Assembly: GCF_964355755.1 (NCBI RefSeq) | Contig: NC_092675.1 | Coordinates: forward strand, 24,400,912-24,464,911 | DNA: 64,000 nucleotides | From: Antedon mediterranea | Lineage: Eukaryota; Animalia; Echinodermata | Direction of reading: 5' to 3' | In this document: piece by piece, positions 12,001 through 46,285 of the stretch | Layout: every line of letters starts with the position of its first letter | Position numbering within the stretch: the first letter of the stretch is position 1 | The notes under the pieces: model-generated | Told to the model about the DNA's origin: nothing | The model's database searches: none | What the model saw: only the letters and a program-made list of their open reading frames with translations | Translations under genes and position numbers: made by a program

Positions 12001-15000
12001 AATTGATCCATCTTCACATAACGCAGAAACAGTAATTGATTCACCGATCGTAGCAGCAACACATACAGTACCGTTAACATTAGTGGTATGCATTTCAATT
12101 ATTCCTGATGACTTCTCCAACACGCTAAAACAAAAGAGGTAAACAAACAATAGTAAATTTAACAGAAAATAATATCATCAATGAACATACAGCCTCAATA
12201 CTTAATTTCCATAAAATATGGGAGAATAACTCTCATTTGTAACCAAACATATTATTTAAAACTTACGTTATGTTTGTAAAAATAACTGGTTCAAGACATT
12301 GGTCATCACCACAAGTTTGCATATGAACACAACCCATTGCATACGGTGTAGTAAATGTTTCTGGTAATTGTGTTGTTTGTTCCCGACATTGGAGAATAAG
12401 AGCAACTTCGCTACAAGTTCCTACTTGACAATCACCGGTGGTTTCCGGAGTGACTGTTGCATTGGCAATTGATCCATCTTCACATAACGCAGAAACAATA
12501 ATTGATTCACCGACCGTAGCAGCAACACATACAGTACCGTTAACATTAGTGGTATGCATTTCAATTATTCCTAATGACTTCTCCAACACGCTAAAACAAA
12601 ACAGGTAAACAAACAATAGTAAATGTAATAGAAAATAATATCATCAATGAAAATACGGCATCAATACTTAATTTCTATCAATTATGGAAGAATAACTTTG
12701 ATTTGTTACCGAAACATATTATTTAAAACTTACGTTATGTTTGTAAAAATAACTGGTTCAAGACACTGGTCGTCAGCACAAGTTTGAATATGAACACAAC
12801 CCATTACATACGGTGTAGTAAATATTTCTGGTAATTGTGTTGTTTGTTCCCGACATTGGAGAATAAGAGCAACTTCGCTACAAGTTCCTAAAACACAATC
12901 ACTGGTGGTTTCCGGAATGACTGTTGCATTAGCAATTGAGCCATCCTCACATAACGCCGAAATAGTAATTGATTCACCGACCGTAGCAGCAACACATACA
13001 GTACCGTTAACATTAGTGGTATGCATTTCAATTATTCCTGATGACATCTCCAACACGCTAAAACAAAACAGGTAAACAAACAATAGTAAATGTAATAGAA
13101 AATAATATCATCAATGAACATACAGCCTCAATACTTAATTTCCATAAAATATGGGAGAATAACTTTGATTTGTAACCAAACATATTATTTAAAACTTACG
13201 TTATGTTTGTAAAAATAACTGGTTCAAGACATTGGTCATCACCACAAGTTTGAATATGAACACATCCCATTGCATACGGTGTAGTAAATGATTCTGGTAA
13301 TTGTGTTGTTTGTTCCCGACATTGGAGAATAAGAGCAACTTCGCTACAAGTTCCTACCACACAATCACCGGTGGTTTCCGGAATGACTGTTGCATTAGCA
13401 ATTGATCCATCCTCACATAACGCAGAAACAGTAATTGATTCACCGACCGTAGCAGCAACACATACAGTACCGTTAACATTAGTGGTATGCATTTCAATTA
13501 TTCCTGATGACTTCTCCAACACGCTAAAACAAAACAGGTAAACAAACAATAGTAAATTTAACAGAAAATAATATCATCAATGAACATACAGCCTCAATAC
13601 TTCATTTCCATAAATATGGAAGAATAACTTTGGTTTGTAACCGAAACATATTATTAAAAACTTACGTTATGTTTGAAAAAATAACTGGTTCAAGACACTG
13701 GTCGTCAGCACAAGTTTGAATATGAACACAACCCATTGCATACGGTGTAGTAAATGTTTCTGGTAATTGTGTTGTTTGTTCCCGACATTGGAGAATAAGA
13801 GCAACTTCGCTACAGGTTCCTACTTGACAATCACCGGTGGTTTCCGGAGTGACTGTTGCATTGGCAATTGATCCATCTTCACATAACGCAGAAACAGTAA
13901 TTGATTCACCGACCGTAGCAGCAACACATACAGTACCGTTAACATTAGTGGTATGCAATTCAATAATTCCTGATGAATTCTCCAACACGCTAAAACAAAA
14001 CAGGTAAACAAACAAAAGTAAATTTAACAGAAAATAATATCATCAATGAACATACAGCCTCAATACTTAATTTCCATAAAATATGGGAGAATAACTTTGG
14101 TTTGTAACCGAAACATATTATTTAAAACTTACGTTATGTTTGTAAAAATAACTGGTTCAAGACACTGGTCGTCAACACAAGTTTGAATATGAACACAACC
14201 CATTGCATACGGTGTAGTAAATGTTTCTGGTAATTGTGTTGTTTGTTCCCGACATTGGAGAATAAGAGCAACTTCGCTACAAGTTCCTACCACACAATCA
14301 CCGGTGGTTTCCGGAATGACTGTTGCATTAGCAATTGAGCCATCCTCACATAACGCCGAAATAGTAATTGATTCACCGACCGTAGCAGCAACACATACAG
14401 TACCGTTAACATTAGTGGTATGCATTTCAATTATTCCTGATGACATCTCCAACACGCTAAAACAAAACAGGTAAACAAACAATAGTAAATGTAATAGAAA
14501 ATAATATCATCAATGAACATACAGCCTCAATACTTAATTTCCATAAAATATGGGAGAATAACTTTGATTTGTAACCAAACATATTATTTAAAACTTACGT
14601 TATGTTTGTAAAAATAACTGGTTCAAGACATTGGTCATCACCACAAGTTTGAATATGAACACATCCCATTGCATACGGTGTAGTAAATGATTCTGGTAAT
14701 TGTGTTGTTTGTTCCCGACATTGGAGAATAAGAGCAACTTCGCTACAAGTTCCTACCACACAATCACCGGTGGTTTCCGGAATGACTGTTGCATTAGCAA
14801 TTGATCCATCCTCACATAACGCAGAAACAGTAATTGATTCACCGACCGTAGCAGCAATACATACAGTTCCGTTAACATTAGTGGTATGCATTTCAATTAT
14901 TCCTGATGACTTCTCCAACACGCTAAAACAAAACAGGTAAACAAACAATAGTAAATGTAATAGAAAATAATATCATCAATGAAAATACGGCATCAATACT

Positions 15001-18000
15001 TAATTTCTATCAATTATGGAAGAATAACTTTAATTTGTTACCGAAACATATTATTTAAAACTTACGTTATGTTTTTAAAAATAACTGGTTCAAGACACTG
15101 GTCGTCAGCACAAGTTTGAATATGAACACAACCCATTACATACGGTGTAGTAAATGTTTCTGGTAATTGTGTTGTTTGTTCCCGACATTGGAGAATAAGA
15201 GCAACTTCGCTACAAGTTCCTACTTGACAATCACCGGTGGTTTCCAGAGTGACTGTTGCATTGGCAATTGATCCATCTTCACATAACGCAGAAACAGTAA
15301 TTGATTCACCGATCGTAGCAGCAACACATACAGTACCGTTAACATTAGTGGTATGCATTTCAATTATTCCTGATGACTTCTCCAACACGCTAAAACAAAA
15401 CAGGTAAACAAACAATAGTAAATTTAACAGAAAATAATATCATCAATGAACATACAGCCTCAATACTTAATTTCCATAAAATATGGGAGAATAACTCTGA
15501 TTTGTAACCAAACATATTATTTAAAACTTACGTTATGTTTGTAAAAATAACTGGTTCAAGACATTGGTCATCACCACAAGTTTGAATATGAACACAACCC
15601 ATTGCATACGGTGTAGTAAATGTTTCTGGTAATTGTGTTGTTTGTTCCCGACATTGGAGAATAAGAGCAACTTCGCTACAAGTTCCTACTTGACAATCAC
15701 CGGTGGTTTCCGGAGTGACTGTTGCATTGGCAGTTGATCCATCTTCACATAACGCAGAAACAGTAATTGATTCACCGACCGTAGCAGCAACACATACAGT
15801 ACCATTAACATTAGTGGTATGCAATTCAATTATTCCTGATGAATTCTCCAACACGCTAAAACAAAACAGGTAAACAAACAATAGTAAATTTAACAGAAAA
15901 TAATATCATCAATGAACATACAGCCTCAATACTTAATTTCCATAAAATATGGGAGAATAACTTTGGTTTGTAACCGAAACATATTATTTAAAACTTACGT
16001 TATGTTTGTAAAAATAACTGGTTCAAGACACTGGTCGTCAGCACAAGTTTGAATATGAACACAACCCATTGCATACGGTGTAGTAAATATTTCTGGTAAT
16101 TGTGTTGTTTGTTCCCGACATTGGAGAATAAGAGCAACTTCGCTACAAGTTCCTACTTGACAATCACCGGTGGTTTCCGGAGTGACTGTTGCATTGGCAA
16201 TTGATCCATCTTCACATAACGCAGAAACAGTAATTAATTCACCGATCGTAGCAGCAACACATACAGTACCGTTAACATTAGTGGTATGCATTTCAATTAT
16301 TCCTGATGACTTCTCCAACACGCTAAAACAAAACAGGTAAACAAACAATAGTAAATTTAACAGAAAATAATATCATCAATGAACATACAGCCTCAATACT
16401 TAATTTCCATAAAATATGGGAGAATAACTTTGGTTTGTAACCGAAACATATTATTTAAAACTTACGTTATGTTTGTAAAAATAACTGGTTCAAGACACTG
16501 GTCGTCAGCACAAGTTTGAATATGAACACAACCCATTGCATACGGTGTAGTAACAATTTCTGGTAATTGTGTTGTTTGTTCCCGACATTGGAGAATAAGA
16601 GCAACTTCGCTACAAGTTCCTACTTGACAATCACCGGTGGTTTCCGGAGTGACTGTTGCATTGGCAATTGATCCATCTTCACATAACGCAGAAACAGTAA
16701 TTGATTCACCGATCGTAGCAGCAACACATACAGTACCGTTAACATTAGTGGTATGCATTTCAATTATTCCTGATGACTTCTCCAACACGCTAAAACAAAA
16801 CAGGTAAACAAACAATAGTAAATTTAACAGAAAATAATATCATCAATGAACATACAGCCTCAATACTTAATTTCCATAAAATATGGGAGAATAACTCTGA
16901 TTTGTAACCGAAACATATTATTTAAAACTTACGTTATGTTTGTAAAAATAACTGGTTCAAGACATTGGTCATCACCACAAGTTTGAATATTAACACAACC
17001 CATTGCATACGGTGTAGTAAATGTTTCTGGTAATTGTGTTGTTTGTTCCCGACATTGGAGAATAACAGCAACTTCGCTACAAGTTCCTACTTGACAATCA
17101 CCGGTGGTTTCCAGAGTGACTGTTGCATTGGCAATTGATCCATCTTCACATAACGCAGAAACAGTAATTGATTCACCGATCGTAGCAGCAACACATACAG
17201 TACCGTTAACATTAGTGGTATGCATTTCAATTATTCCTGATGACTTCTCCCACACGCTAAAACAAAAGAGGTAAACAAACAATAGTAAATTTAACAGAAA
17301 ATAATATCATCAATGAACATACAGCCTCAATACTTAATTTCCATAAAATATGGGAGAATAACTCTGATTTGTAACCAAACATATTATTTAAAACTTACGT
17401 TATGTTTGTAAAAATAACTGGTTCAAGACATTGGTCATCACCACAAGTTTGAATATGAACACAACCCATTGCATACGGTGTAGTAAATGTTTCTGGTAAT
17501 TGTGTTGTTTGTTCCCGACATTGGAGAATAAGAGCAACTTCGCTACAAGTTCCTACTTGACAATCACCGGTGGTTTCCGGAGTGACTGTTGCATTGGCAA
17601 TTGATCCATCTTCACATAACGCAGAAACAGTAATTGATTCACCGACCGTAGCAGCAACACATATAGTACCGTTAACATTAGTGGTATGCATTTCAATTAT
17701 TCCTGATGACTTCTCCAACACGCTAAAACAAAACAGGTAAACAAACAATAGTAAATGTAATAGAAAATAATATCATCAATGAAAATAAGGCATCAATACT
17801 TAATTTCTATCAATTATGGAAGAATAACTTTGATTTGTTACCGAAACATATTATTTAAAACTTACGTTATGTTTGTAAAAATAACTGGTTCAAGACACTG
17901 GTCGTCAGCACAAGTTTGAATATGAACACAACCCATTACATACGGTGTAGTCAATTTTTCTGGTAATTGTGTTGTTTGTTCCCGACATTGGAGAATAAGA

Positions 18001-21000
18001 GCAACTTCGCTACAAGTTCCTAAAACACAATCACTGGTGGTCTCGGGAGTTACTGTGGCATTGGCAATTGATCCATCTTCACATAACGCAGAAACAATAA
18101 TTGATTCACCGACCGTAGCAGCAACACATACAGTACCGTTAACATTAGTGGTATGCATTTCAATTATTCCTGATGACTTCTCCAACACGCTAAAACAAAA
18201 CAGGTAAACAAACAATAGTAAATTTAACAGAAAATAATATCATCAATGAACATACAGCCTCAATACTTCATTTCCATAAAATATGGAAGAATAACTTTGG
18301 TTTGTAACAGAAACATATTATTAAAAACTAACGTTATGTTTGAAAAAATAACTGGTTCAAGACACTGGTCGTCAGCACAAGTTTGAATATGAACACAACC
18401 CATTGCATACGGTGTAGTAAATATTTCTGGTAATTGTGTTGTTTGTTCCCAACATTGGAGAATAAGAGCAACTTCGCTACAAGTTCCTACTTGACAATCA
18501 CCGGTGGTTTCCGGAGTGACTGTTGCATTGGCAGTTGATCCATCTTCACATAACGCAGAAACAGTAATTGATTCACCGACCGTAGCAGCAACACATACAG
18601 TACCATTAACATTAGTGGTATGCAATTCAATTATTCCTGATGAATTCTCCAACATGCTAAAACAAAACAGGTAAACAAACAATAGTAAATTTAACAGAAA
18701 ATAATATCATCAATGAACATACAGCCTCAATACTTAATTTCCATAAAATATGGGAGAATAACTTTGGTTTGTAACCGAAACATATTATTTAAAACTTACG
18801 CTATGTTTGTAAAAATAACTGGTTCAAGACACTGGTCGTCAGCACAAGTTTGAATATGAACACAACCCATTGCATACGGTGTAGTAAATATTTCTGGTAA
18901 TTGTGTTGTTTTTTCCCGACATTGGAGAATAAGAGCAACTTCGCTACAAGTTCCTACTTGACAATCACCGGTGGTTTCCGGAGTGACTGTTGCATTGGCA
19001 ATTGATCCATCTTCACATAACGCAGAAACAGTAATTAATTCACCGATCGTAGCAGCAACACATACAGTACCGTTAACATTAGTGGTATGCATTTCAATTA
19101 TTCCTGATGACTTCTCCAACACGCTAAAACAAAACAGGTAAACAAACAATAGTAAATTTAACAGAAAATAATATCATCAATGAACATACAGCCTCAATAC
19201 TTAATTTCCATAAAATATGGGAGAATAACTTTGGTTTGTAACCGAAACATATTATTTAAAACTTACGTTATGTTTGTAAAAATAACTGGTTCAAGACACT
19301 GGTCGTCAGCACAAGTTTGAATATGAACACAACCCATTGCATACGGTGTAGTAAATATTTCTGGTAATTGTGTTGTTTGTTCCCGACATTGGAGAATAAG
19401 AGCAACTTCGCTACAAGTTCCTACTTGACAATCACCGGTGGTTTCCGGAGTGACTGTTGCATTGGCAATTGATCCATCTTCACATAACGCAGAAACAGTA
19501 ATTGATTCACCGATCGTAGCAGCAACACATACAGTACCGTTAACATTAGTGGTATGCATTTCAATTATTCCTGATGACTTCTCCAACACGCTAAAACAAA
19601 ACAGGTAAACAAACAATAGTAAATTTAACAGAAAATAATATCATCAATGAACATACAGCCTCAATACTTAATTTCCATAAAATATGGGAGAATAACTCTG
19701 ATTTGTAACCAAACATATTATTTAAAACTTACGTTATGTTTGTAAAAATAACTGGTTCAAGACATTGGTCGTCAACACAAGTTTGAATATGAACACAACC
19801 CATTGCATACGGTGTAGTAAATGTTTCTGGTAATTGTGTTGTTTGTTCCCGACATTGGAGAATAAGAGCAACTTCGCTACAAGTTCCTACTTGACAATCA
19901 CCGGTGGTTTCCGGAGTGACTGTTGCATTGGCAATTGATCCATCTTCACATAACGCAGAAACAGTAATTGATTCACCGACCGTAGCAGCAACACATACAG
20001 TACCGTTAACATTAGTGGTATGCATTTCAATTATTCCTGATGACTTCTCCAACACGCTAAAACAAAACAGGTAAACAAACAATAGTAAATGTAATAGAAA
20101 ATAATATCATCAATGAAAATACGGCATCAATACTTAATTTCTATCAATTATGGAAGAATAACTTTGATTTGTTACCGAAACATATTATTTAAAACTTACG
20201 TTATGTTTGTAAAAATAACTGGTTCAAGACACTGGTCGTCAGCACAAGTTTGAATATGAACACAACCCATTACATACGGTGTAGTAAATATTTCTGGTAA
20301 TTGTGTTGTTTGTTCCCGACATTGGAGAATAAGAGCAACTTCGCTACAAGTTCCTAAAACACAATCACTGGTGGTCTCGGGAGTTACTGTTGCATTGGCA
20401 ATTGATCCATCTTCACATAACGCAGAAACAATAATTGATTCACCGACCGTAGCAGCAACACATACAGTACCGTTAACATTAGTGGTATGCATTTCAATTA
20501 TTCCTGATGACTTCTCCAACACGCTAAAACAAAACCGGTAAACAAACAATAGTAAATTTAACAGAAAATAATATCATCAATGAACATACAACCTCAATAC
20601 TTAATTTCCATAAAATATGGGAGAATAACTTTGATTTGTAACCAAACATAGTATTTAAAACTTACGTTATGTTTGTAAAAATAACTGGTTCAAGACATTG
20701 GTCATCACCACAAGTTTGAATATGAACACATCCCATTGCATACGGTGTAGTAAATGATTCTGGTAATTGTGTTGTTTCTTCCCGACATTGGAGAATAAGA
20801 GCAACTTCGCTACAAGTTCCTACAACACAATCACCGATGGTTTCCGGAATGACTGTTGCATTAGCAATTGAGCCATCCTCACATAACGCAGAAATAGTAA
20901 TTGATTCACCGACCGTAGCAGCAACACATACAGTACCGTTAACATTAGTGGTATGCATTTCAATTATTCCTGATGACTTCTCCAACACGCTAAAACAAAA

Positions 21001-24000
21001 CAGGTAAACAAACAATAGTAAATTTAACAGAAAATAATATCATCAATGAACATACAGCCTCAATACTTCATTTCCATGAAATATGGAAGAATAACTTTGG
21101 TTTGTAACCGAAACATATTATTTAAAACTTACGTTATGTTTGAAAAAATAACTGGTTCAAGACACTGGTCGTCAGCACAAGTTTGAATATGAACACAACC
21201 CATTGCATACGGTGTAGTAAATGATTCTGGTAATTGTGTTGTTTGTTCCCGACATTGGAGAATAAGAGCAACTTCGCTACAAGTTCCTACCACACAATCA
21301 CCGGTGGTTTCCGGAATGACTGTTGCATTAGCAATTGAGCCATCCTCACATAACGCAGAAATAGTAATTGATTCACCGACCGTAGCAGCAACACATACAG
21401 TACCGTTAACATTAGTGGTATGCATTTCAATTATTCCTGATGACATCTCCAACACGCTAAAACAAAACAGGTAAACAAACAATAGTAAATGTAATAGAAA
21501 ATAATATAATCAATGAACATACAGCCTCAATACTTAATTTCCATAAAATATGGGAGAATAACTTTGATTTGTAACCAAACATATTATTTAAAACTTACGT
21601 TATGTTTTTAAAAATAACTGGTTCAAGACATTGGTCATCACCACAAGTTTGAATATGAACACATCCCATTGCATACGGTGTAGTAAATGATTCTGGTAAT
21701 TGTGTTGTTTGTTCCCGACATTGGAGAATAAGAGCAACTTCGCTACAAGTTCCTACCACACAATCACCGGTGGTTTCCGGAATGACTGTTGCATTAGCAA
21801 TTGATCCATCCTCACATAACGCAGAAACAGTAATTGATTCACCGACCGTAGCAGCAACACATACAGTACCGTTAACATTAGTGGTGTGCATTTCAATTAT
21901 TCCTGATGACATCTCCAACACGCTAAAACAAAACAGGTAAACAAACAATAGTATATGTAATAGAAAATAATATCATCAATGAAAATACGGCATCAATACT
22001 TAATTTCTATCAATTATGGAAGAATAACTTTAATTTGTTACCGAAACATATTATTTAAAACTTACGTTATGTTTTTAAAAATAACTGGTTCAAGACACTG
22101 GTCGTCAGCACAAGTTTGAATATGAACACAACCCATTGCATACGGTGTAGTAAACGTTTCTGGTAATTGTGTTGTTTGTTCCCGACATTGGAGAATAAGA
22201 GCAACTTCGCTACAAGTTCCTACTTGACAATCACCGGTGGTTTCCGGAGTGACTGTTGCATTGGCAATTGATCCATCTTCACATAACGCAGAAACAGTAA
22301 TTGATTCACCGACCGTAGCAGCAACACATACAGTACCGTTAACATTAGTGGTATGCATTTCAATTATTCCTGATGACTTCTCCAACACGCTAAAACAAAA
22401 CAGGTAAACAAACAATAGTAAATTTAACAGAAAATAATATCATCAATGAACATACAGCCTCAATACTTAATTTCCATAAAATATGGGAGAATAACTTTGA
22501 TTAGTAACCGAACATATTATTTAAAACTTACGTTATGTTTGTAAAAATAACTGGTTCAAGACACTGGTCGTCAGCACAAGTTTGAATATGAACACAACCC
22601 ATTGCATACGGAGTAGTAAATGTTTCTGGTAATTGTGTTGTTTGTTCCCGACATTGGAGAATAAGAGCAACTTCGCTACAAGTTCCTACAACACAATCAC
22701 CGGTGGTTTCCGGAGTGAGTGTTGCATTGGCAATTGATCCATCTTCACATAACGCAGAAACAGTTAGAGATTCACCGACCGTAGCAGCAACACATACTGT
22801 ACTGTTTTCATTAGTGGTGTACTTTTCAATTCTACCTGATGAAATCTCCAGCACACTAAAATATAGGTTACAAAATAAACATTTTTAATTGCATTTTTTT
22901 CAAATACAACTCCATTATTATAAATATACAATAGTGAGAAAGAGTAATCTTTTTTTTTTATTAATAATTCGATTATTTGAAACTTACCTTATGTTTCTGA
23001 ACATAACTGGTTCAAGGCATTTTTCGTCACCACAAGTTTTTATACGAACACAACCCATTTCATATGGTGTAGTAAATGATTCTGGTAATTGTGTTGTTTG
23101 TACACGACATTGCAGGATAAGAGCAACACTGCTACAAGTTCCTACTTGACAATTACCAGTGCTTTCCGGAGTTACTGTTGCATTTGCCATTGATCCATCT
23201 TCACATAACGCAGAAACAGTTACGGATTCACCGACCGTAGCAGCAACACATACTGTACCATTTTCATTAGTGGTGTACTTTTCAATTCTACCTGATGAAA
23301 TGTCCAGCACACTAAAAAATAGGTTACAAAATAAACATTTTTAATTGCATTTTTTTCAAATACAACTTCATTATTATAAATATACAATAGTGAGAAAGAG
23401 TAATCTTTTTTTTAATTAATAATTCGATTATTTGAAACTTACCTTATGTTTCTGAACATAACTGGCTCAAGGCACTTTTCGTCACCACAAGTTTTTATAC
23501 GAACACAACCCATTTCATATGGTGTAGTAAATGATTCTGGTAATTGTGTTGTTTGTAAACGACATTGGAGGATAAGAGCAACACTGCTACAAGTTCCTAC
23601 TTGACAATCACCAGTGCTTTCCGGAGTTACAGTTGCATTTGCCACTGATCCATCTTCACATAACGCAAAAACAGTTACGGATTCACCGACCGTAGCAGCA
23701 ACACATACTGTACCGTTTTCATTACTAGTGTACTTTTCAATTCTACCTGATGAAATCTCCAGCACACTAAAATATAGGTTACAAAATAAACATTTTTAAT
23801 TGCATTTTCTTAAATACAACTCCATTATTATAAATATACAATATTGAGAAAGAGTAAATTTTTTTTTAATTAATAATTCGATTATTTGAAACTTACCTTA
23901 TGTTTCTGAACATAACTAGCTCAAGGCACTTTTCGTCACCACAAGTTTTTATACGAACACAACCCATTTCATATGGTGTAGTAAATGATTGTGGTAATTG

Positions 24001-25122
24001 TGTGGTTTGTACCCGACATTGGAGGATAAGAGCAACACTGCTACAAGTTCCTACTTGACAATCACCAGTGCTTTCTGGAGTTATAGTTGCATTTGCCATT
24101 GATCTATCTTCACATAACGCAGAAACAGTTAGAGATTCACCGACAGTAGCAGCAACACATACTGTACCGTTTTCATTAGTGGTGTATTTTTCGATTCTAC
24201 CTGATGAATTTTCCAGCACACTAAATATAGGTAACAAAATAAACATTTTTAATTGCATTTTTTTCAAATACAACTCTATTATTATAAATATATAATAATA
24301 AGAGTAAAAATTGTTTTATTAATAATTCGATTATTTGAAACTTACCTTATGTTTCTGAACATAACTGGTTCAAGGCATTTTTCGTCACCACAAGTTTTTA
24401 TACGAACACAACCCATTGCATACGGTGTAGTAAATGATTCTGGTAATTGTGTTGTTTGTACACGACATTGGAGGATAAGAGCAACACTGCTACAAGTTCC
24501 TACTTGACAATCACCAGTGCTTTCCGGAGTTACAGTTGCATTTGCCATTGATCCATCTTCACATAACGCAGAAACAGTTACGGATTCATCGACCGTAGCA
24601 GCAACACATACTGTACCGTTTTCATTAGTGGTGTACTTTTGAATTCTACCTGATGAAATCTCCAGTACACTGAAATGTAGGTTACAGAATAATCACTTTT
24701 AATAGCATTTTTTCAAATACAACTCCATTATTATAAATATATAATAGTGAGAAAGAGTAATTTTTTTTTAATTAATAATTCGATTATTTTAAACTTACCT
24801 TATGTTTCTGAACATAACTGGTTCAAGGCACTTTTCGTCACCACAAGTTTTTATACGAACACAACCCATTTCATATGGTGTAGTAAATGATTCTGGTAAT
24901 TGTGTTGTTTGTACACGACATTGGAGGATAAGAGCAACACTGCTACAAGTTCCTACTTGACAATTACCAGTGCTTTCCGGAGTTACAGTTGCATTTGCCA
25001 TTGATCCATCTTCACATAACGCAGAAACAGTTACGGATTCACCGACCGTAGCAGCAACACATACAGTACCGTTATCATTAGTGGTGTACATTTCAATTTT
25101 TCCAGATGAAATATCCAGCACA
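1..25122 (-). repeat. Tandem exon-plus-intron array, unit about 466 bp (about 450-456 bp at the right end), 54 complete units plus the start of a 55th at positions 1-2
   Basis: Each unit has an acceptor such as ttttgttttag|CGTGTTGGAG (AG at 470-471, exon 469-146) and a donor AAC ATA AC|GTAAGT (plus strand 'acttac', 140-145). Each exon encodes 8 invariant Cys and usually the sequons NGT, NAT and NI(T/S). Confidence 0.95.
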
Positions 25123-28100
25123 CTAACACAGGTTAAATAACAAGAATATTTGTATTGTACATTGTTTAAACAATAAGTCTATCTTGATTATATTATTCTA
25201 ATGAAATCTCCAACAAACTAAACAGAACTTGTAACACATTATTAAAGTATTAAAACGTAAAACAATCTAATCTGCATAGTATTTAATGTGCAATGAAATT
25301 TAGTTGTTCTGTCGAAAACCAAAAATTGTTATGAGAAACTCTCCACATGTTAAATGTGTAATGGTGGTGATTGCGCTAAAACTAATAATGGGTGTATTAA
25401 ACTTACTTGACATCGTAATCGGGGACATAAGTTAGACATTTGTCATCACTACAAGTCATTATACGAACACACCCCGATTGGGTACAGTTAAATTCATCAC
25501 TTCCGTCACTACAGTCCATTTTTCCATTACATAATGTATCATATCCAATACATTCACCACTTCCACACATAAAACCATTACATGTAAGACATTTCATAAG
25601 AAAAAGAGCTTTAGAACATTCTGCATCTTGGTTGGTTGTATTCAATTGTATAGTAATGGTTTCATTATTGATGGTGCAACGGGTTGTCACATTTACTTCA
25701 GAGTTTGTCTTGACAGTGAAAACTACTTTTCCACTCGCATCAGTGAAATTTGAGTATCCATATGAATAACTATGTCCGACAATTCTGGAGAAAAAAAAAA
25801 CAACCGAAAATTAATTATGGTTATATGTCTGCTGGATATATGGCTATGACAAAACGTTCGAACCTATGACTATGGCAACAATGTGAAAAAAAGAAATACA
25901 CAGTCTTAGTATATGACCGGCATTGAATCATCCAACTAACTTTTAATCATGTGTGTATGGTTATTTTTATTCCATTGACATTAATATAAAGAAGCCGATA
26001 CAAGAGGTGGTTTATTTTATAGATAGGGTTCTTTTTAGTCAAATATAATTGTAGTTTACGTCTATAATATTACTGTTGAATGCGTATAAAAAACAAAATG
26101 GTAAATTTTATACGGCGGACACTGCAGGTTGACAGGTTGCTCGAATGTGATCAGTCAAAGCCTCATATCGCGCATGTGGTTTCTCACTGTTTAACAAAAC
26201 TAAACGCCCAAACCGAAATTGCAGTATTCGCATATAAAGACATTGCACACTCAATAACGTAATAATATTTCACTAAAACATTGATTGAATATTATAACCT
26301 ACAATCCTCAAAGACAAAAACCTACTTAGGTATGTTAATTACAATCATAATAAATACTTACTCAACGTAATGGTCAGGAACAGGTTGCGTACAATCATAA
26401 TCTAAACACACAGATACATTAAGACAAGTTTGCTCATCAGAAACAATTCCTCCCTGCCACAGTGACAAATGTGGGAGTGATGCTACCCAGTACAGCTCAC
26501 CAGAAAACACCTCAATATGTCCATAGTCTTGTGGTTTCCATGCACCTAATATGTATTACAGTAAAACCTGTTTTAGTGTACTATAATTTGTTGTTTATTT
26601 ATTGTTCTTTGTATGTTTCATTACATGACAATAAAATGACAATATAATTTACTCTGAATCTTCATTATCATAAATAATAAGTGTTGTTAGTTTATCAATA
26701 ATAGGATAATAAAATGTTAAATATTTTTCCCCCCTGTACACTAAATTTCAGCTTAATATTTAATTTAACAAAGTAAAAAACACACATAATGACAAGTCCT
26801 TTTTTGTTATGTTAAAATACCTTTTCCACTTTAGCGAATGACAATATATTATCAAGTCGGCGCTGGATGAGGTCGTGCAGTATATTGAGTTACTGTGTTT
26901 AGTGTATCTAAGACTATATATAAATTTACGTAAAGGCAAAATTCGGTAAATCGCGTGTTATTTCTAAAATATTTACTCGATGGTATATAAAGTTGGTTAG
27001 AATCTCGGTACTGATTTTAACCACCTGATTTAACCCTTTTTACTAATTAAATTTAGTTAGATAATTAGTTATTGACAATTAAAACGAATTTAGGTTCAAC
27101 GATTTGCCCCCAATAGGGGTGTTTTCTGATCGTGGTATACACTGTCTAATGGATATCCTCATGAAAAAATACCTGCACACAATAATACGAGGATACTTCG
27201 CATTTTCCTATCTCCTCCTACGATAATTGTTTTCAATAGCTGAAAACCGGTTGAACAGCTCGAGTACAGTATCATAATGTTGAAGACAGACCGAGAATCT
27301 CGGTACTGATTTTAACCTGATGTAACCCTGTTTACTAATTCAATTTAGTTAGATAATAAGTTATTGACAATTAAACGAATTTAGGTTCAACGATTTGAAC
27401 AGCTCGAGTACAGTATCATAATGTTGAAGACAGGCCGATTTTCTTTAAAAAATAATATTTTGATAGATTTAATATACGTTTATACAAATGTATTGATTTG
27501 CAATGAATGGAACATTCCCAATTATTTGGTTTAACCATGCTTGCATACATCCATAGTTTAACACAAGTAAGTAAATTTATGGGCCCTTGGAGAATAAACA
27601 TAAACAGTATTGTAATGCTATACAATACTATAGGTATTAACCACGTTTGATCATCATAGTCATATATACTTTATTGTCCATTTAAAAAACAGAAATGTGA
27701 TTTGAAAACTGGCAAAATACAAAAATATAAAATACAATTTACAAAAACACACACAAAAAGTTAAGAGGCTAAAAATTGTTAAAATTAGATAAAAATTATT
27801 ATTATTTAATTATATTATATGATTTATTATTATATTGAACTAACGATGATTTAAAGTTTATATAAAAGCATTAAAACTATAAAAATAAACAAAAGCGGTT
27901 ACATTTTACCTTTGTACTCTGGAGTTATATAAGTGTATAGCATTAGGTACAAACGAGCACCTAAACCGTTTTGTTTTGGTATTAAGTGCACGTAGTCTTA
28001 TCGCCATTTAAATCGCATTTAATTTCTTATTGTGTGTGTTTGTACCGCTAGATATAATATAAACAAATATACTAATAAACTTTATTACTGTGAGTGTGGG

Positions 28101-31100
28101 TAGCCCCTACTTTTAGATTATAAACACATAACAATAATTATAATAATTTATTACTGACAGTTGCTTCTCATCTTTTGTATAAATTAATAATTACAAAAAA
28201 ATATAAACGTCGTAGTGGTGTATCGTTACACGTACTTTACTATTTCAATCGACTATGACAGTGACAATTTTAACATAGTTATTAAATCGGAAATGTTTTA
28301 CTCTATTTAGTGGTATATTATTTATAAGCCTATAAAAAAATATGTCGTTACTTATAAAAATAAATATAAATAATAAAGAAATATAAAGAATAATTTATTA
28401 TAAAGAATATATTAAAAAAGTGTTCCTCTTTGTATCCCTCATCCCTAACCCTCAACAATAATGTTAGATAGAAAACAAAAATTGGGTTTGTTAAATAAAT
28501 CCAAATCAAACATTTGGACTCATTTTGTGACAAGTTTCTCTTTTGGAAGTAATTTCCAGGGTGCTAATTTTGGTTGACTACATAAATTATTGTGTCTATT
28601 TATTTGTTTATGTAAACGACAATGTTTTATAGTCATGCGTTACGTACATTTGAAATCGCCAGTTCTTTTACGCTGAAATTACTATGTAGGCCTATTCGAG
28701 AACCATCTGTGGACATGATCTAGTAATACATAATTGAAGCTAAAGTAATTTTGGTAAATAATTATTTCTAGATTGTACATGAATTGGATAAAGTATAATA
28801 TACGGAAATCAGCAAGCCATGACGTTTACTTTCATTATTCATGGTAGTTGTAATATTGTGATAAGTGGTGTCACTTTAATGGGCCATCATTAGTAAAACT
28901 ACCTTATGTAAGTCAGGATTCAGAACCTTTTTTCTGCGAAACCAACATACATAACCATACATGTATAGCGTTCTGATTTTTTTACTGATAATGATACTCG
29001 TCGTGAAGGTAGCGATAAATCATCGCTTGTTTGGGTTGTTCCATACCTTTTCTGGCATTCTACAATTTGTTTCTTGGCTCGTTTTACTTCAAAATCCGAG
29101 TCGATGGCAATTTGCGTTATTTTTAGTTCATATATTTCGGCCTTAACTATGGATAAGTTATAGGCCTATGCTCTGTTTCTATAACTTGGTTCACGTAAAG
29201 ATTTTATTTGTTCTTCTTTGTTTATTATACATCTTGTCCATGATTTTAGTTTTGAGTCGGGTGGGGGGGGGGGGAGTGGTAGTTTAATTAAATTTAAATT
29301 AATTAAGATTTCAGAGATTTAATTTCCGTTCTGAGATTTATATTTTCAGTTCCAATAGAGAGTTTCAGATTTTTTAATTATCGCAAATTTTCAACACCAC
29401 TCACGTTAGACAGAACGCTTACAGTTTAAAAGTAGCGATTGTGAACAAAACAACGATTACGTAACATGAACAAAAGGCACGAGTGGAGAAAGCACTGAAC
29501 TCAGTAGACCGTGAAGAATGTTAGAAATCTCTCAGTGAAAAAAAAACCAATATATTTGTTAGCCCAGAAAATAAACGCTAATTACAGGGCAAAGGTACAG
29601 TCAGAGTCGGTACAGTTCGTTATAGTGGTGGTCTATTTTAAGTGACTTAGCTTAGAAAAACAAAGGTTGTTTCTACTCTCCAGTATTTGAAAATCATGCC
29701 TTTATTTCCCCATCAAGCTAAGATAAAGTTATTCCTGAATTTACCTGTGCAGTTGTGGTTACCTAATTGATAGATTTGAGCACAAAATTGAGATATCAGT
29801 TCAAATGTACAGTGTACTTGTGTTAGACTGCCTTCGGTATTAACGGCATCAAGGGGGAAGACAGGATGTACCATGACAAGCTAACTTTGGTTAGGTAGGC
29901 CTAAGTAAAATAATTGTAATTAATAAATGAAACATTTGCTTACCGGTTAACTTCTCGTAATAAAAGGATTGGACGACATCACCTTGTTTTGCTGAACCAG
30001 GTAGTATAGGAACAGAAACAATAATTGATTCATTTAAATTAACCTCCTGACCAGTGTTTTTGTCTATCAACGTCAGATCAAAACGGGTTATCGGCTGAAT
30101 GAGTTTACCTGTAGAGAAATTGTACAGTTAGATAAAACATACAAATCAAATAGATGACAGCGTATGTTTTTAGGGCAATATAAAATAAAAAAGATGACAG
30201 TTTTTATATTTCGTTACAAAGTCTTCATTTTGTCCTCTTTCGAGTTCCCCGTGTTGTCCTGTTTTTTTTTATATTTCAATGTTATGGGCTGCCTCTCACG
30301 AGCTTTGCTTTTCTCATTTACAGCTGAGTGCACTGGGAGTTGTCGGGAATTGAACCCGGGTCTGTGTGGTAGGGTGGCCAGTTCCTTTCCACGCCGCCTT
30401 TTTCTCCCTAGTATTTTCAACTAGGTACTCATTTACAGCTGAGTGGACTGGGAGTTGTCGGGAATTGAACCCGGGTCTATCTGTATGACAGTCAAGTGTC
30501 CTAACCACTCGGCTATCCAACTCCAACTCTTTAAATAATAAAATACAAATACAAACAAAATAACATTACAATATACTAATAGTGACGGATACAAACACTA
30601 ATAAATAATAAATTCTCTTATATTATGAGGAAATAGCAAAACAGAGTGATACATGTTATGATTACAATATCTATATGAAGAAATAGTAAAACGAACATAT
30701 TATTACAAGTGATACAGGACAGTATTATATGGACAAATAGTTAACTATTTAATTATTATAATTTATTATTATTAAATTATTCTCTCCATTCAATCACACA
30801 AGCCCACAAGAGAACCACGTTTTATCACGGTATCTAAATATTCCCACAAAAACAAGTTAGTAAGCTTTCTTCGAGAGTTATATAAATCATATATTATGTA
30901 TATAATTATATAATTTTTACAATATATTGTAATAATATGTATTTCAACAAAATGATTAACACAAGCTCTTACAGTTGTAGTTTGATTGTTAATGCCGATT
31001 AAAGAATTTCGTTTACGTGGGACTCAAACGCTATGCTCTGATTCTACTGTATTCCAAAGAAGAAGAAACTAAATATATTCAATGAAATCTAAAAGCGTAG

Positions 31101-32396
31101 CCAATGCCAAATCGAATCTATTATCCTTAAAGTTTAACAGTCAAGGTAAATCTAATGAATCTAATAGATTAGTCTACACCTACTTAAAAAAAAATAAAAA
31201 CCTTTCATTTTAGGTATACAATAGTTGTTTAAAGGTATTTAAACAGTTCGACTCACCTTTCGGATCAACAGACGTAGGTATGTTTAATAACTGGGTTTCA
31301 TCACCAATGTTAGTAAAACAAACTGAAATGTCCACTGTATCGTTACCAAGGTTATCTAAACTTCCTGAAAATGTAAGGTAGTTTATAATTTATTCAAGAT
31401 GAATTTTGCAAACTTTGTTATATATTTTGTTATATATTATAAATAACAAACTAAAACAAAACAGAACATATTTTCGAAATGTATGGTCCTACAAATAATA
31501 CAATAATGTTCAGTGCATTCATCTTCTGAAACCAATAACTTTCTTTTATGAATCATCATAACAAACTTTATGAACCTAATTAAAAATTAATCATGTGAGC
31601 ATGATAGTAATTATATATATAATAATATAGGCCTACATTAATTATATAATAATTTTTTTTAATCAAAGATTCATTAATTCTCTCATTTATCTTCTCATTT
31701 ATCTTTGAACGCAAGATGCTATTACTTTAACTAATATCGCTAATGATAATAAATATTACTGATTAATATACTGGGGCAAATTCATAATTATGTGGTATGG
31801 ACGCGAGATTAATATGGACCTCTAGTTGGCCAACAAATTACAGAACCAGTACAATGTCTGGAAGTATGTAAAGTGAAAATGTATTAACTGACCAGGATTG
31901 ATATGAAAATTTGCAGTAGGGGTGGAGCTGGGAGTACTTAGCCGTGTTTGGAGGGAGAGAGAAGAACATGTTTAACCAGGAAAAGATATCATTTGTGAGC
32001 GACACTTGAAAACTCTATATCACCTTTTTAAGTATGCAAACTTACCAGGTGTAAATAAAATTGACATTTGTCCTCCCGACGGCATATCAATTTCCACCGA
32101 CGTACTCAAAGTAGTATCTACTTTTATTGTTGAGACAATCGTTAGTGGTATCAGCTCAAATTCAAAGGTTGTGTACGATGAAGTATGTTCTGGAGTTTGC
32201 CAAATTTTACTTGCTTCCAAAAAACCATGTACGTCTATGGTTATTGTGCCACTTGAATTCCCTGGTAAAAGAAAAACGTTTTCCTGTCCATCGTAGATTA
32301 TAATCAGACCACCACTTGTATGTTGAACAACTGTTACAGACGGGTTGTTTAGGTCAGCCCAACGTATGTTCGTTGGCCTTAAATAGACATAAGAAT
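1..32396 (-). CDS. Giant multi-exon extracellular protein gene: FAM171/CILP-like N-terminal region, diverged beta-sandwich repeat, LDLa, then at least 54 tandem 108-aa Cys-rich exon repeats (first exon not found; 3' end outside window)
   Basis: Phase-compatible GT-AG exon chain read by hand: 32396-32046 (phase 1-1), 31364-31257 (1-1), 30108-29944 (1-1), 26545-26362 (1-2), 25784-25407 (2-2), then 54 phase 2-2 exons from 25122-24799 down to 469-146. No stop codon seen in the spliced frame; about 18.7 kb of CDS in the window. Confidence 0.85.
25407..25784 (-). CDS. Exon of giant gene: diverged repeat domain, LDL-receptor class A module (25484-25582), and start of the first repeat
   Basis: Acceptor tttttctccag| and donor |GTAAGT; 378 nt. 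Translates IVGHSYSYGYSNFTDASGKVVF...CNGFMCGSGECIGYDTLCNGKMDCSDGSDEFNC-TQSGCVRIMTCSDDKCL. The six Cys and DCSDGSDE match the LDLa signature. Confidence 0.9.
26362..26545 (-). CDS. Exon of giant gene (end of FAM171-like domain)
   Basis: tag|GT GCA TGG ... GTT GA|GTAAGT; 184 nt; GAWKPQDYGHIEVFSGELYWVASLPHLSLWQGGIVSDEQTCLNVSVCLDYDCTQPVPDHYVE. Confidence 0.85.
26912..27600 (+). mobile_element. Dispersed non-coding repeat, copy 1, with an internal duplication of about 100 bp
   Basis: Highly similar to about 36575-37140 (tatataaatttacgtaa.ggcaaaattcg ... gaatggaacat). The block starting gaatctcggtactgatttt occurs at about 27000 and again at about 27295. Confidence 0.75.
27650..28015 (-). mobile_element. 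3' fragment of a non-LTR retrotransposon (Rex1/CR1-group-like)
   Basis: Minus strand near 27920-28005 reads IRLRALNTKTKRFRCSFVPNAIHLYN, the TxRFxxSFxPxAIxLxN type of LINE ORF2 C-terminus, followed by an AT-rich tail. Confidence 0.55.
29944..30108 (-). CDS. Exon of giant gene (FAM171-like domain)
   Basis: tttctctacag| ... |GTAAGC; 165 nt; KLIQPITRFDLTLIDKNTGQEVNLNESIIVSVPILPGSAKQGDVVQSFYYEKLTG. Confidence 0.85.
30313..30525 (-). mobile_element. tRNA-derived SINE (Deu/Nin-domain-like) with partial internal duplication
   Basis: A box TAGCCGAGTGG, GTC in the anticodon-like loop, B box GGTTCAATTCC, then ccactcagctgtaaatgagtacctag and aaggcggcgtggaaaggaactggccaccctacc. The B box to ctgtaaatgag segment is repeated at about 30313-30365. 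Confidence 0.75.
31257..31364 (-). CDS. Exon of giant gene
   Basis: attttcag| ... |GTGAGT; 108 nt; SLDNLGNDTVDISVCFTNIGDETQLLNIPTSVDPK; phase 1-1 fits both neighbours. Confidence 0.8.
32046..32396 (-). CDS. Most 5' identified exon of giant gene
   Basis: attttgcag| ... |GTAAGT; 351 nt open; SYVYLRPTNIRWADLNNPSVTVV...TITIDVHGFLEASKIWQTPEHTSSYTTFEFELIP...ILFTP. Confidence 0.8.
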
Positions 32397-32560: not shown

Positions 32561-34835
32561 TATACCAAAAAAATGTTTATATATATTTACATACCGTTAG
32601 ATAATACCAATTTTCATAGATAGACTATTTTATTGAATCATTATCGACCAATGGACTGCAACGTATCTTATTTATTATATTTATTTATAACTGTGTAGGA
32701 CTTAATTAATTACAGTAACTAAATTTAGTAATTATTTTCATACTGATAGCATAAATACTATATATTTTTCTATAACCAATTATTTAATTGTCAGTTACAC
32801 TAATTGTTCTGTTTGTATTTTTCACTTTTTATGTCATGTTTGTTTTGTTGCTGTATTTATTATCTCGTCTTGAATTTTATACCCAGGTAACCACATATCA
32901 TGTATGTATTTATATGACGATGAATAAAGAATCTTGAAAGTTTTAAAAAGGGCGTTACATATTTCTTTATTCAAAATATTTATAATATTTTGTTGATTTG
33001 ATTGAGAAAACGTTTTACTTCTAAACCAGATCCTCAAAAAAAAAGAAACAACATCTTTATATTAACATTTAAATATGTTATATATTTATGTTAAATATTT
33101 ATGTACTAATATACTTTTTTTCTTGCTTGAATACATAATACTATTATTGCGAAACTGAATATTTGAATAAAGAGAATAAATCATTTTGAGCACTTATTTC
33201 TGTAATAACACACTTGGCAGCCATATTAGGCCCACAGCAAATGTATTCATCGTTTTGCCCTTTGTATTTAACAACAACGATATTCAAGTATTGGTATTAT
33301 GTTATACTGCAAAGAATTGAAGAGACAGAAAAGATTTAGGTTAGGGCCTAGAGAAATAGGTGCCGCGACTATGGTCCAACAAAAGGCTGTACAACGTCAA
33401 CTGTTTAGTCTGATAAATTGTATAGAGGTAATATTGACAGTGTGGAAACAAAGTGTACAGCGATAGTGCAATGTTGTCAAAGTACATCCAGTGTCATTTT
33501 AAATAATTCAGAAAACTGGGATGATAAAAAAAAAAGATATTTTAATTGATGTACTTTAAAAAGGTATATTTTTCTAACACCATGATCACGTAAAGATTCG
33601 AGTGAGACATTAAATTTAAAGTTTGTTAGCGTACAGTGTCTCTGGTGACACGTACTTCATGCATGGCACACTAGACACTGTTGTCTGTTTTGTATAGACA
33701 GACATTAATAGCAATTAATTGTAATATTCCTATTTTATATTAATTTATTTTACTTTCGCATCTATAAACCTTTTCTCACTATTCATAGCAAAATCGTTAT
33801 TAACCATTAAATTAGTTGATTCACTGTGCCTAACTAACTATAGTCAGTAGCCACTAACCTGTTTCCCTGGCATTTATAGAGGTGTGTGTTGAAACAAAGA
33901 GAAAAAATGACAAGATTAACCGCTTCATTTTTCTCGATAGACCGTAAGCACGTCTCAATCTTTAATAGGCCTACTTATCCATGATATGCGGCAAAATCAG
34001 TTATATTTCCTACAGTATGTTTCGATATGTGTTTGTAATATCAGAGCTAGTTAAATATTGGTTATTGAAAGGCAAATTGTATTGTATCCTTTATGAAGGT
34101 TCTGCTTAGCCAAGCATATACAACTGATCAGTACAATTCAATTTCAACAGAATGTGTGTGTATTGTATTGGTTAAAAGCAATTGGATAAGTGAATTGACG
34201 TTGATTTATCTGTATTTTGACTTTTATATCCCAATTTAGAAAGTCATGGTGAGATGGAATGGGAAAATAACTAGTGGACAAATGGATGGAACATTTTCTT
34301 ATTTTAACTTTTAAAGGGCACTATAGTATTTTATTTAGTGACATATATTTTAATTTTAATTTGAAAAATGTATTTTTTATGCCCGTTTTTATGTCATTTA
34401 TTTACTTTTTGTTAATTAAAATCAATCAAACTACCACTTCTATTCAGTCTACATTTTCAGATTATTGTTTTCTAACAATATATAAACACGAATGCTTATG
34501 AGTGTAATGTGGCAAATAATTTCAGGTGAAAAACAAAAATATGAAATGTCATCTTTACACTGAATGAACTTATATGCCTCACATGCACGAATGTAAAACA
34601 TAAAACGCTTTAGGAGTGCTTCATAAAATGTATTTAATTGAAAACCATGTGGCCCACAATTGTCCCATCAAATGACAAGAATCTAGGCTACGTGTGGGTT
34701 ATAAAAAATATAGGTCTATGCCTATGTATAAATGTTATACTATTCGCCATCTTCTCCCTCTCACGCGCGCCAGAGCGTAAAATATCGAAAGTTTGCCAAC
34801 TTCAATAATATTACACGCATGGCGTTCCATACCCC

Positions 34836-45381: not shown

Positions 45382-46285
45382 TTGTCGGAATTATCTTAAT
45401 TATTAAATAAAATTAATTTTGTAGGTTGTCAGCTTTGATAAAAGTATTTGTTGTTGGTTTTTTTTTTTATTTACGTATTTAAAATTGGCATTTCAACCAC
45501 ATATAACTTTTGAACAGGACATTAAATACTTTTTTCAGACATAAACTGTGTTATATAATAACTATTGTGCGATAAAGTGTAATACTTATTATTTCATACA
45601 GCACACTGGAGTAATTTTGTGGATTTGTCTGTGTGGATAATGATGTTTACACAGGCCCTAGATTTGAAGGGTGCTACTGGATGTAACAATTACATTTTGT
45701 CATTTTACATCCAGTATATGATTTGTCTTTCAATTTACATTGATGATGATGCTATGTTCTTCCAGATAGTAAATAAGTTTACTTATTTCTTTACTTATTG
45801 TTTGTTTTTTTTGTTGTATATCTTTATTTGCCTGAATAAATGAAATTCTCATATTTACAAAATAAAATTTGTCTTTTTTTCATTCTGTAACTTTAATTAA
45901 TCTTTTTTTAATATAGCAATAACAATGAAATAAATAACATTTCTATATACAATTGTTGTAATTTTAGTTTGATTGTATTTTGTTAAAGATAGTTAAATTA
46001 CCAATCATATTTATTTTATCAAATTGTAATAGCCCTGTTTCTATGTTTTGGAAAGGCCCATTCAGTTTCCTTCGGAATAAAGTACTATTGAATTGAATAA
46101 ATTTCAATATTATTTCCAAAATTACGTCTATTTTTCATATCATAATTACTTAAAAAAGAAGTTTACAGTAATAATATTAAATGATTTAATATGACAATAA
46201 ATGATTTAATCCTATTAACAAACATATCTACAGTACTACACACTGACATTTAAACAAATTATATACAATTTATTTTTAAATGGAA

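What the first reader, a model, noticed from the sequence alone, without database searches (positions are those of the whole stretch)
24799..26545. Exon boundary is offset from the domain boundary, and the LDLa exon reveals the true module and origin of the array
Seen: the 25784-25407 exon is a diverged repeat exon. FTDASGKVVF aligns with TTNVNGTVCV, CSKALFLMKC with CSEVALILQC, and GCVRIMTCSDDKCL with GCVHIQTCADDQCL. The LDLa module sits exactly where the repeats have the Thr/Pro linker REQTTQLPEIFTTPYAM. The previous exon also ends in a homologous stretch, TCLNVSVCLDYDCTQPV. So the folded unit probably runs from GCVHIQTC to ALILQC, with the phase 2 intron inside it. Inference: the P-V-x4-I-T-V ... 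T-T-N-x-N-G pattern suggests a prealbumin-like (CarboxypepD_reg / Cna-B type) beta-sandwich stabilised by up to four disulfides. The array would have arisen by intron-to-intron duplication.
Basis: partly seen in the sequence, partly recalled or inferred. Interest (0 to 1): 0.7.

Follow-up and report, generated by a model that had tools for sequence, protein, structure and literature searches.

The report
Feather star giant beaded secreted protein
A feather star gene carries at least 54 near-identical exons, each encoding the back three-quarters of one predicted transthyretin-like protein bead and the front quarter of the next, which would give a secreted chain of over 6,200 residues, likely a long glycosylated stalk behind a head that may cut itself.

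Summary
The LDLa exon's two ends and the end of the exon before it align with the repeat (z 5.6-8.6), and the phase-2 intron falls in the same column each time. The folded unit is GCV…LQC (91 aa) plus a 17-aa Thr/Pro linker. A paralog and other echinoderm proteins border the domain at these points, and an AlphaFold model aligns residues 89-179 to whole transthyretin-like domains (Z 10-11). That model's alignment was built in this register; the alignment-poor control was inconclusive. The origin story needs correcting. Domain 0-LDLa-domain 1 is an older cassette shared with the paralog. The array groups with domain 1, not with the LDLa exon's first half (support 97/97, AU p=0.064). The intron site also appears in sea cucumber fragments. 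Two of three visible array edges lie inside exons. So a domain-register duplication around an old intron probably made the permuted exon, and unequal crossing-over amplified it. The head is FAM171/ZU5/GAIN-like with an HL-S motif. Known folds, an unusual giant assembly that NCBI annotates only in pieces.

The parts
33859..33928 (-). Coding part of exon 1, predicted signal peptide (MKRLILSFFLFVS…)
   Evidence: spliced in run X1 contig; signal peptide judged by eye, no predictor run
32046..32396 (-). Exon 2: eroded first domain in the CarboxypepD_reg position (aa 24-108, low pLDDT) and start of the ZU5-like domain
31257..31364 (-). Exon 3: ZU5/GAIN-B-like (FAM171_N-like) domain
29944..30108 (-). 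Exon 4: ZU5/GAIN-B-like domain
   Evidence: (PF10577 E 0.017)
26362..26545 (-). Exon 5: end of ZU5-like domain, then N-part (first strand, 3 Cys; 26429-26362) of domain 0; phase-2 end
   Evidence: same two borders in 72-aa ORFs P0064/P0067 of a sea cucumber cluster
26463..26471 (-). H257-L258-S259, candidate autoproteolysis motif just before the last strand of the ZU5-like domain
   Evidence: coordinates; H[FL][ST]xW in 50 of 57 relatives; strand E260-266
25589..25784 (-). C-part of domain 0 (3 Cys; lacks the position 44/77 Cys pair)
25475..25588 (-). LDL-receptor class A module, no flanking introns
   Evidence: PF00057 E 8e-10
25407..25474 (-). N-part of domain 1 (GCVRIMTC…DYDV), first member of the array lineage
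24799..25122 (-). First repeat exon: C-part of domain 1 (to 24918), Thr/Pro linker (24917-24867), N-part of domain 2
22988..24669 (-). Four more type A repeat exons, introns 125-132 nt
22532..22855 (-). Hybrid exon switching from type A to type B between 22765 and 22732, inside the exon
   Evidence: 41 diagnostic sites
146..22389 (-). 48 type B repeat exons (46 of 324 nt, 2 of 321 nt), introns 141-143 nt; the array runs off the window
   Evidence: repeat intron spliced in run X1 (joint 22389/22532)

Best explanation
The gene has a signal-peptide-like start, a FAM171/ZU5-like head, one old bead, an LDLa module and at least 54 near-identical repeat exons; each bead is a predicted 91-aa disulfide-bonded transthyretin-like beta-sandwich that an ancient intron cuts in its second strand, so the product would be a likely secreted, glycosylated beaded stalk of over 6,200 residues. 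Shown: exon structure, phase-2 symmetry, 8 invariant Cys, offset of exon against homology unit, splicing of the head and of a repeat intron. Predicted: fold and borders (model plus natural borders in relatives). Inferred history: an old single domain behind the ZU5-like domain already held the intron; it duplicated to give domain 0-LDLa-domain 1, shared with a paralog; domain 1 then duplicated with breakpoints in coding sequence, fusing C-part, a piece of Thr-rich stalk and N-part into one exon; unequal crossing-over amplified and homogenised that exon. Inferred working: because all repeat exons are phase 2-2, gain, loss or skipping of any exon joins one N-part to another C-part and still gives whole beads, so length can vary freely; the chain most likely acts as a spacer or mucus/matrix filament that carries the head, which may self-cleave at HL/S.
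For: Natural borders: paralog P0004 has LDLa-GCLIIEAC…IVVNC-mucin stalk, and domain-0-type repeats whose linkers differ in length at the same place; echinoderm relatives have the domain between HFSWW and Sushi. Model of P0002 (two exon units): best block 88-178 at pLDDT 89-96, minima at the linker (74-82, 184-187), exon junction inside strand E109-114. VIA: range 89..179 on 5aq0 (Z 10.1, 81/82, rmsd 2.3), 3e8v (Z 11.1, 79/82, 2.5), BcpA 3kpt (Z 10.9, 91 aligned, 2.6); domain 0 at 271..360 on 5aq0 (Z 10.3, 81/82, 2.6). 22 of 41 alignment rows match CarboxypepD_reg at E<=0.01. Cys 44/77 covary 23/0/0/14 in 37 rows. Array C-part with paralog domain 1 at 97/97, and Cys spacing 18 versus 20. pN/pS 0.30-0.56. 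Head: ZU5 3f59 Z 9.6 (126/149, rmsd 3.1), CD97 GAIN 8ikj Z 9.9 (144 aligned, 3.1); profile hits FAM171A2 at 4.9e-31.
Against: The P0002 alignment was built in the permuted register, so that model is not an independent test. In the P0001 model the repeats with 0-6 alignment rows stayed at pLDDT about 30-70 and gave no verdict; LDLa was also unfolded there. Foldseek gave no E<=0.001 hit for the P0002 model. The window protein itself scores below Pfam cut-offs for CarboxypepD_reg (13.8 vs 32.3) and FAM171_N (24.8 vs 31.2). AU test did not reject a clade of domain-0 C-part plus array (p=0.064), and support fell to 94/95 under the simpler model. No listed RNA row shows the LDLa exon joined to the first repeat exon; the X1 contig runs 63 nt into that intron (tables cut). 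The 5' edge of the homogeneous tract does lie at an intron/exon border, as intron-to-intron duplication predicts. The C-terminus is outside the window; function and cleavage are untested.
Confidence: 0.75

Rival explanations
1. One reading: the repeat exon is a copy of the LDLa exon made by intron-to-intron duplication, with LDLa lost or swapped for a linker.
For: Same layout, same phase, same intron column. Homogeneous tract begins at the acceptor of the first repeat exon (TRF edge 25130). AU test does not reject domain-0 C-part plus array as a clade (p=0.064).
Against: Array C-part scores 89-102 against paralog domain 1 and 40-46 against window domain 0; tree 97/97; Cys spacing 18 matches domain 1. 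No LDLa remnant in the linker. A/B switch and distal edge are inside exons. Introns of domain 0, domain 1, type A and type B are not significantly alike (z -1.6 to 1.7), so they neither support nor exclude it.
Confidence: 0.12
2. The exon is the folding unit in the array: each C-part takes the following N-part as a circular permutant through the 17-aa linker, that is, a fixed tandem domain swap.
Against: All relatives have N-part then C-part with natural borders. The N-part of domain 0 has three Cys with no upstream C-part to pair with. ESM Atlas gave full-length CarboxypepD_reg clusters for the permuted unit (144-157 shared features in the top three) and mostly short or unnamed clusters for the exon unit (102-126), both under 0.9 and so only leads.
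Confidence: 0.06
3. The head plus LDLa is a short separate product that ends at the stop in the LDLa exon's donor (…DYDVK*), and the array is expressed apart from it or as an alternative form.
For: The X1 contig carries exons 1 to LDLa and reads 63 nt into the next intron; no listed joint from 25407 to 25122.
Against: Canonical GTAAGT donor and in-frame acceptor; NCBI model P0001 joins them; no other start for the array was seen; a short form would end in an orphan strand. Intron-side contigs are also seen for repeat introns in X1 at low depth, as expected of pre-mRNA or DNA.
Confidence: 0.07

Closest known systems
Transthyretin-like / CarboxypepD_reg domain (human carboxypeptidase D 5aq0; PF13620) and Cna-B pilin domains (BcpA 3kpt, 8bdw)
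   Same: Predicted fold and domain extent; relatives match PF13620; tandem use as a stalk in bacterial pilins and adhesins (own knowledge).
   Different: 8 Cys, three N-glycosylation sequons and a Thr/Pro linker; below Pfam cut-off; no Asn in the last strand for a Cna-B isopeptide; at least 54 copies about 93% identical in one animal chain.
FAM171A1/A2 ectodomain (9y63, 9y6n; PF10577)
   Same: CarboxypepD_reg-like domain followed by a ZU5-related domain (bioRxiv 10.1101/2025.09.18.675241, abstract and passages); profile E 4.9e-31 and 9.2e-27.
   Different: FAM171 has QLG where this has HLS and is a short type I membrane protein; here the head is followed by domain 0, LDLa and the array, as in bacterial-type and echinoderm relatives that keep H[FL][ST].
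ZU5 / GAIN-B / Nup98 autoproteolytic domains
   Same: Fold and an HL-S motif before the last strand, as in PIDD, Nup98 and CARD8 (PMC3210808 and PMC3482391, passages).
   Different: Followed by a transthyretin-like domain instead of UPA or a 7TM region; cleavage not shown.
Antedon paralog XP_071959542.1 (P0004)
   Same: Domain 0-LDLa-domain 1 cassette, 8-Cys pattern, tandem copies with Thr-rich linkers.
   Different: It amplified domain 0 upstream of LDLa (at least three copies) and ends in mucin-SEA-EGF-SEA-EGF-TM; the window gene amplified domain 1 downstream.
Repeat-protein genes built from intron/exon modules (Street et al. 2006, seen only as cited in PMC4585158 and PMC11252736)
   Same: Exons of exactly one repeat length with conserved intron position and phase.
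   Different: Those are described for repeat proteins in general; here the unit is an independently folding globular domain and the exon is its circular permutation.

Membership tests
Prealbumin/transthyretin-like fold | Beta-sandwich superposes over a whole known domain | tested here: met
   81 of 82 residues of 5aq0, Z 10.1 and 10.3; predicted models, alignment-guided
Pfam CarboxypepD_reg PF13620 | Score at or above the curated cut-off | tested here: not met
   13.8 bits vs 32.3 for P0001; only relatives match (22 of 41 rows at E<=0.01)
Cna-B pilin domain | Lys (first strand)-Asn (last strand) isopeptide bond with a catalytic acid (definition recalled) | tested here: not met
   Last strand reads VALILQC with no Asn; the first-strand Lys of type A is Gln in type B and Met in domain 1
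Disulfide-stabilised domain, four bonds | Eight conserved Cys in defined pairs | tested here: inconclusive
LDL receptor class A module | PF00057 above cut-off, six Cys, acidic DxSDE cluster | tested here: met
   39.2 bits vs 24.1; Cys 361-393 and DCSDGSDE
FAM171 family | PF10577 above cut-off | tested here: not met
   24.8 vs 31.2 bits, E 1.6e-5; homology is by profile of relatives
FAM171 family | Transmembrane helix directly after the two-domain ectodomain | tested here: not met
   Domain 0, LDLa and repeats follow instead
FAM171 family | Trimeric ectodomain | not tested
ZU5/GAIN-B autoproteolytic superfamily | ZU5/GAIN-B fold | tested here: met
   3f59 Z 9.6 over model 108-266; CD97 8ikj Z 9.9; pLDDT 85-97
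ZU5/GAIN-B autoproteolytic superfamily | H-F/L-S/T motif before the last strand | tested here: met
   H257-L258-S259 before strand 260-266; conserved in 50 of 57 hits
ZU5/GAIN-B autoproteolytic superfamily | Actual self-cleavage | not testable with these tools
   Needs expression and an S259A control

The most novel reading that the evidence does not exclude
An animal has built, from a module shared with bacterial-type surface proteins (CarboxypepD_reg, ZU5-like HFS domain, CarboxypepD_reg), a single-chain pilus-like filament: a self-cleaving head on 54 or more disulfide-locked beads about 93% identical. Because each exon is the tandem-swap permutant of the bead, exon skipping or unequal crossing-over yields length variants made of chimeric but intact domains. 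Two paralogs amplified the two sister domains independently on either side of one LDLa.
Probability: 0.3. Interest if true: 0.62.

Novelty: new variant of a known kind. Interest (0 to 1): 0.42.

Why it matters
It is a clean natural case where the unit of gene duplication and the unit of protein folding are circular permutations of each other, with the older steps still readable at the array's edge and in a paralog. It shows that an intron inside a domain does not block modular amplification. The array of near-identical neighbours is a ready test object for tandem domain swapping and for whether disulfides and glycans suppress it. It also points to an uncharacterised echinoderm family with FAM171-like heads that keep the autoproteolysis motif. 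The principle (repeat-length exons with a conserved intron) is known, and no function is shown, which limits the score.

Tried and rejected
No whole genome was held, so the C-terminus and the paralog's introns could not be read. Direct searches with one repeat: Pfam gave only sub-threshold noise (EKR, Lamp2, PLCC hits are weak per-repeat scores summed over copies and were set aside), PDB sequences 0 hits. Word-based protein searches found only Antedon pieces or bacterial-type CarboxypepD_reg proteins; no other animal array was listed, which is weak evidence. No RNA holder is on record as such; X1 is treated as RNA only because its contigs are spliced. Contig depth was not used for copy number. 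LDLa-to-linker homology rejected. Intron-to-intron homology not significant in 7 of 7 comparisons, one of them a control. First domain (24-108) vs repeats: no direct similarity (z 0.0-1.1). FAM171 structures were not among the VIA rows for the full-length model. Alignment-poor folding of repeats 2-6 gave no verdict. P0036 was a low-complexity false hit and was left out. Trimer prediction of the head was not available. Earlier findings: 3 look-ups, none returned. Paper searches: (offset or permuted repeat exons; crinoid proteins) found no description of this gene or of such an array; Liao et al. 2014 was not held and Street et al. 2006 was seen only as cited.

Full report
What is in the sequence. 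The window's first 25 kb is one tandem array of period about 467 on the minus strand. It holds 54 repeat exons (52 of 324 nt, 2 of 321 nt), all phase 2-2, all with 8 Cys and no stop. Upstream lie six more coding exons; the splice model equals NCBI protein P0001, labelled Antedon mediterranea (a feather star), for 1060 aa. NCBI stops that model after six repeats and annotates other stretches as separate fragments (P0002, P0003). Head plus repeats in the window give about 6,250 aa, and the array runs off the window. One run with spliced contigs (X1, one study) joins exon 1 to the LDLa exon and skips a repeat intron with canonical ends. The join from the LDLa exon to the first repeat exon was not among the listed rows, and that contig reads 63 nt into the intron.

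The observation. The alignment is ungapped for 59 residues and puts the intron at position 23 in domain 0, domain 1 and all repeats. LDLa scores 39.2 bits, occupies the linker's place and shows no homology to it (z -0.5).

Where the domain begins and ends. A search of 1.84 billion representatives with residues 24-358 gave 57 hits. The best is a paralog on another contig, P0004: three domain-0-type repeats with linkers of different length, LDLa, one domain-1-type unit, then mucin-SEA-EGF-SEA-EGF-TM. Its domain 1 is bordered by LDLa and by a Cys-free stalk exactly at GC…C. In sea urchin, sea cucumber, brittle star and another crinoid a single copy sits between an HFSWW-type motif and a Sushi domain. 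An alignment of P0002, two window exons, P0004 and 37 single-domain rows (38 of the 57 hits; 19 weak, truncated or false rows left out) matches a SusC N-terminal extension at 4.4e-6 from the first strand on, and 22 of its 41 rows match CarboxypepD_reg. AlphaFold of P0002, which is two exon units, gave one high block at 88-178, minima at the linker and the exon junction inside strand 109-114. VIA-align placed 89..179 on whole transthyretin-like domains: 3e8v Z 11.1, BcpA Z 10.9, carboxypeptidase D 5aq0 Z 10.1 with 81 of 82 residues. Foldseek listed mostly the same fold types but none at E<=0.001. Domain 0 behaves alike in the P0001 model (strands 270-278 and 291-296, intron at 293; 5aq0 Z 10.3). 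Caveat: both alignments favour this register. The repeats of P0001 that had almost no alignment rows stayed low in confidence, so the unbiased check failed to decide. The natural borders, not the models, carry the argument.

Disulfides. Cys 44 and 77 are present or absent together in 37 of 37 rows (23 both, 14 neither), and domain 0 lacks both. Cys 2 and 82 are absent together in P0006, which suggests a bond across the intron; this is inference. The other four Cys covary with animal origin and cannot be paired from these data. Sequons occur at positions 21 (50 of 52), 40 and 66 (52 of 52); the first is completed by the split codon.

History. (1) The intron is old: two 72-aa ORFs in the cluster of a sea cucumber relative begin and end at the residues that match both borders of window exon 5. 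They look like genomic exon read-outs; their DNA was not seen. (2) Domain 0-LDLa-domain 1 predates the paralog split. (3) The array descends from domain 1: its C-part groups with the paralog's domain 1 at 97/97 and shares its Cys spacing of 18 against 20. Under a simpler model support was 94/95 and the AU test did not reject the alternative (p=0.064), so this is likely, not proven. If so, the permuted exon was not copied from the LDLa exon; it needed a duplication with breakpoints in coding sequence (or an intron loss). (4) Amplification: five type A exons, one hybrid and 48 type B. The hybrid switches inside the exon (22765-22732). A loose end shared by X1, X2 and X5 shows, outside the window, an array exon that diverges ten codons before its donor (NIPIERHNIS for LEPVIFTNIT, read by hand from a 30-base consensus), keeps the phase-2 site and continues into unlike sequence; it is probably the last one. 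The proximal edge lies at an acceptor. pN/pS is 0.30 (A-A), 0.56 (B-B) and 0.42 (A-B) over 51 of 54 exons, pairs not independent; neighbouring domains are 92.8% identical (52 of 54 domains).

The head. A profile of P0001, P0002 and 41 of the 57 hits matches FAM171A2 and A1 at 4.9e-31 and 9.2e-27. Residues 109-266 fold at pLDDT 85-97 and superpose on ankyrin ZU5 and on GAIN domains of CD97, CELSR1, GPR126, BAI3 and GPR110 (Z 8.2-9.9). H-L-S stands just before the last strand; H[FL][ST]xW is kept in 50 of 57 hits while FAM171 has QLG. Self-cleavage at such motifs is reported for PIDD, Nup98 and CARD8 (PMC3210808 and PMC3482391, passages seen). The FAM171 preprint describes a carboxypeptidase-like plus ZU5-related pair that forms trimers (10.1101/2025.09.18.675241, abstract and passages). 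That FAM171 and CILP were linked to ZU5/GAIN by Liao et al. 2014 is recalled; only its citation was seen.

How it most likely works. A secreted or surface glycoprotein whose array is a long spacer or filament. At roughly 4-5 nm per bead and linker (my estimate) it would exceed 200 nm. The paralog's membrane-mucin tail suggests a surface or mucus role; this gene's anchor is unknown. Since every repeat exon is phase 2-2 and cuts at the same column, adding, losing or skipping exons re-pairs N- and C-parts into whole domains. [quoted passage not shown]

Novelty. Folds and the principle of repeat-length exons are known (PMC4585158 and PMC11252736, passages citing Street et al. 2006; PMC5100051 passages added nothing). 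Five searches of the open library returned no description of this gene or of a permuted-exon array of this domain; subscription papers and supplements were not seen. Verdict: real, register and fold right, origin partly revised; a new variant of known kinds, interest 0.42.

Noticed in passing
window 18332 (-): One repeat donor reads GTTAG instead of GTAAG; exon 1 uses the same GTTAG donor and is spliced in run X1, so it is probably functional.
   Followed up: partly
window 25406-25344 (-): The X1 contig runs 63 nt into the intron after the LDLa exon, where an in-frame TAA lies in the donor: pre-mRNA or a short 419-aa form.
   Followed up: partly
window 25475-25588 (-): The LDLa module has no flanking introns, whereas LDLa modules are usually phase 1-1 exons (recalled); suggests intron loss or exonic insertion.
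   Followed up: no
P0001 residue 156 (exon 31364-31257): A single Cys in the ZU5-like head with no obvious partner in the head.
   Followed up: no
P0006-P0011, P0013, P0014 (echinoderm hits): An uncharacterised echinoderm family, (EGF or Ig)n-CarboxypepD_reg-FAM171_N with HF[ST]WW-type motif-transthyretin-like domain-Sushi; the Sushi domain carries an extra Cys in those inspected (P0006, P0007, P0008), which may bond to the preceding domain.
   Followed up: partly
window 45000-49700 (-): Exons of a coiled-coil protein that resemble ciliary CFAP53 by recall; no Pfam hit for two single exons.
   Followed up: no
window 36200-44600 (+): Exons of another coiled-coil protein on the opposite strand; no Pfam hit for two single exons.
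   Followed up: no
window 59056-59505 (-): Last exon of a Ly6/uPAR-like protein (CCDTDNCN; PF00087 E 0.007, below cut-off) with a Gly/Ala repeat and a hydrophobic, GPI-signal-like end.
   Followed up: partly
window 26900-28950 and 30250-30650: High-copy interspersed repeats in the introns of the gene (very high summed contig depth).
   Followed up: no
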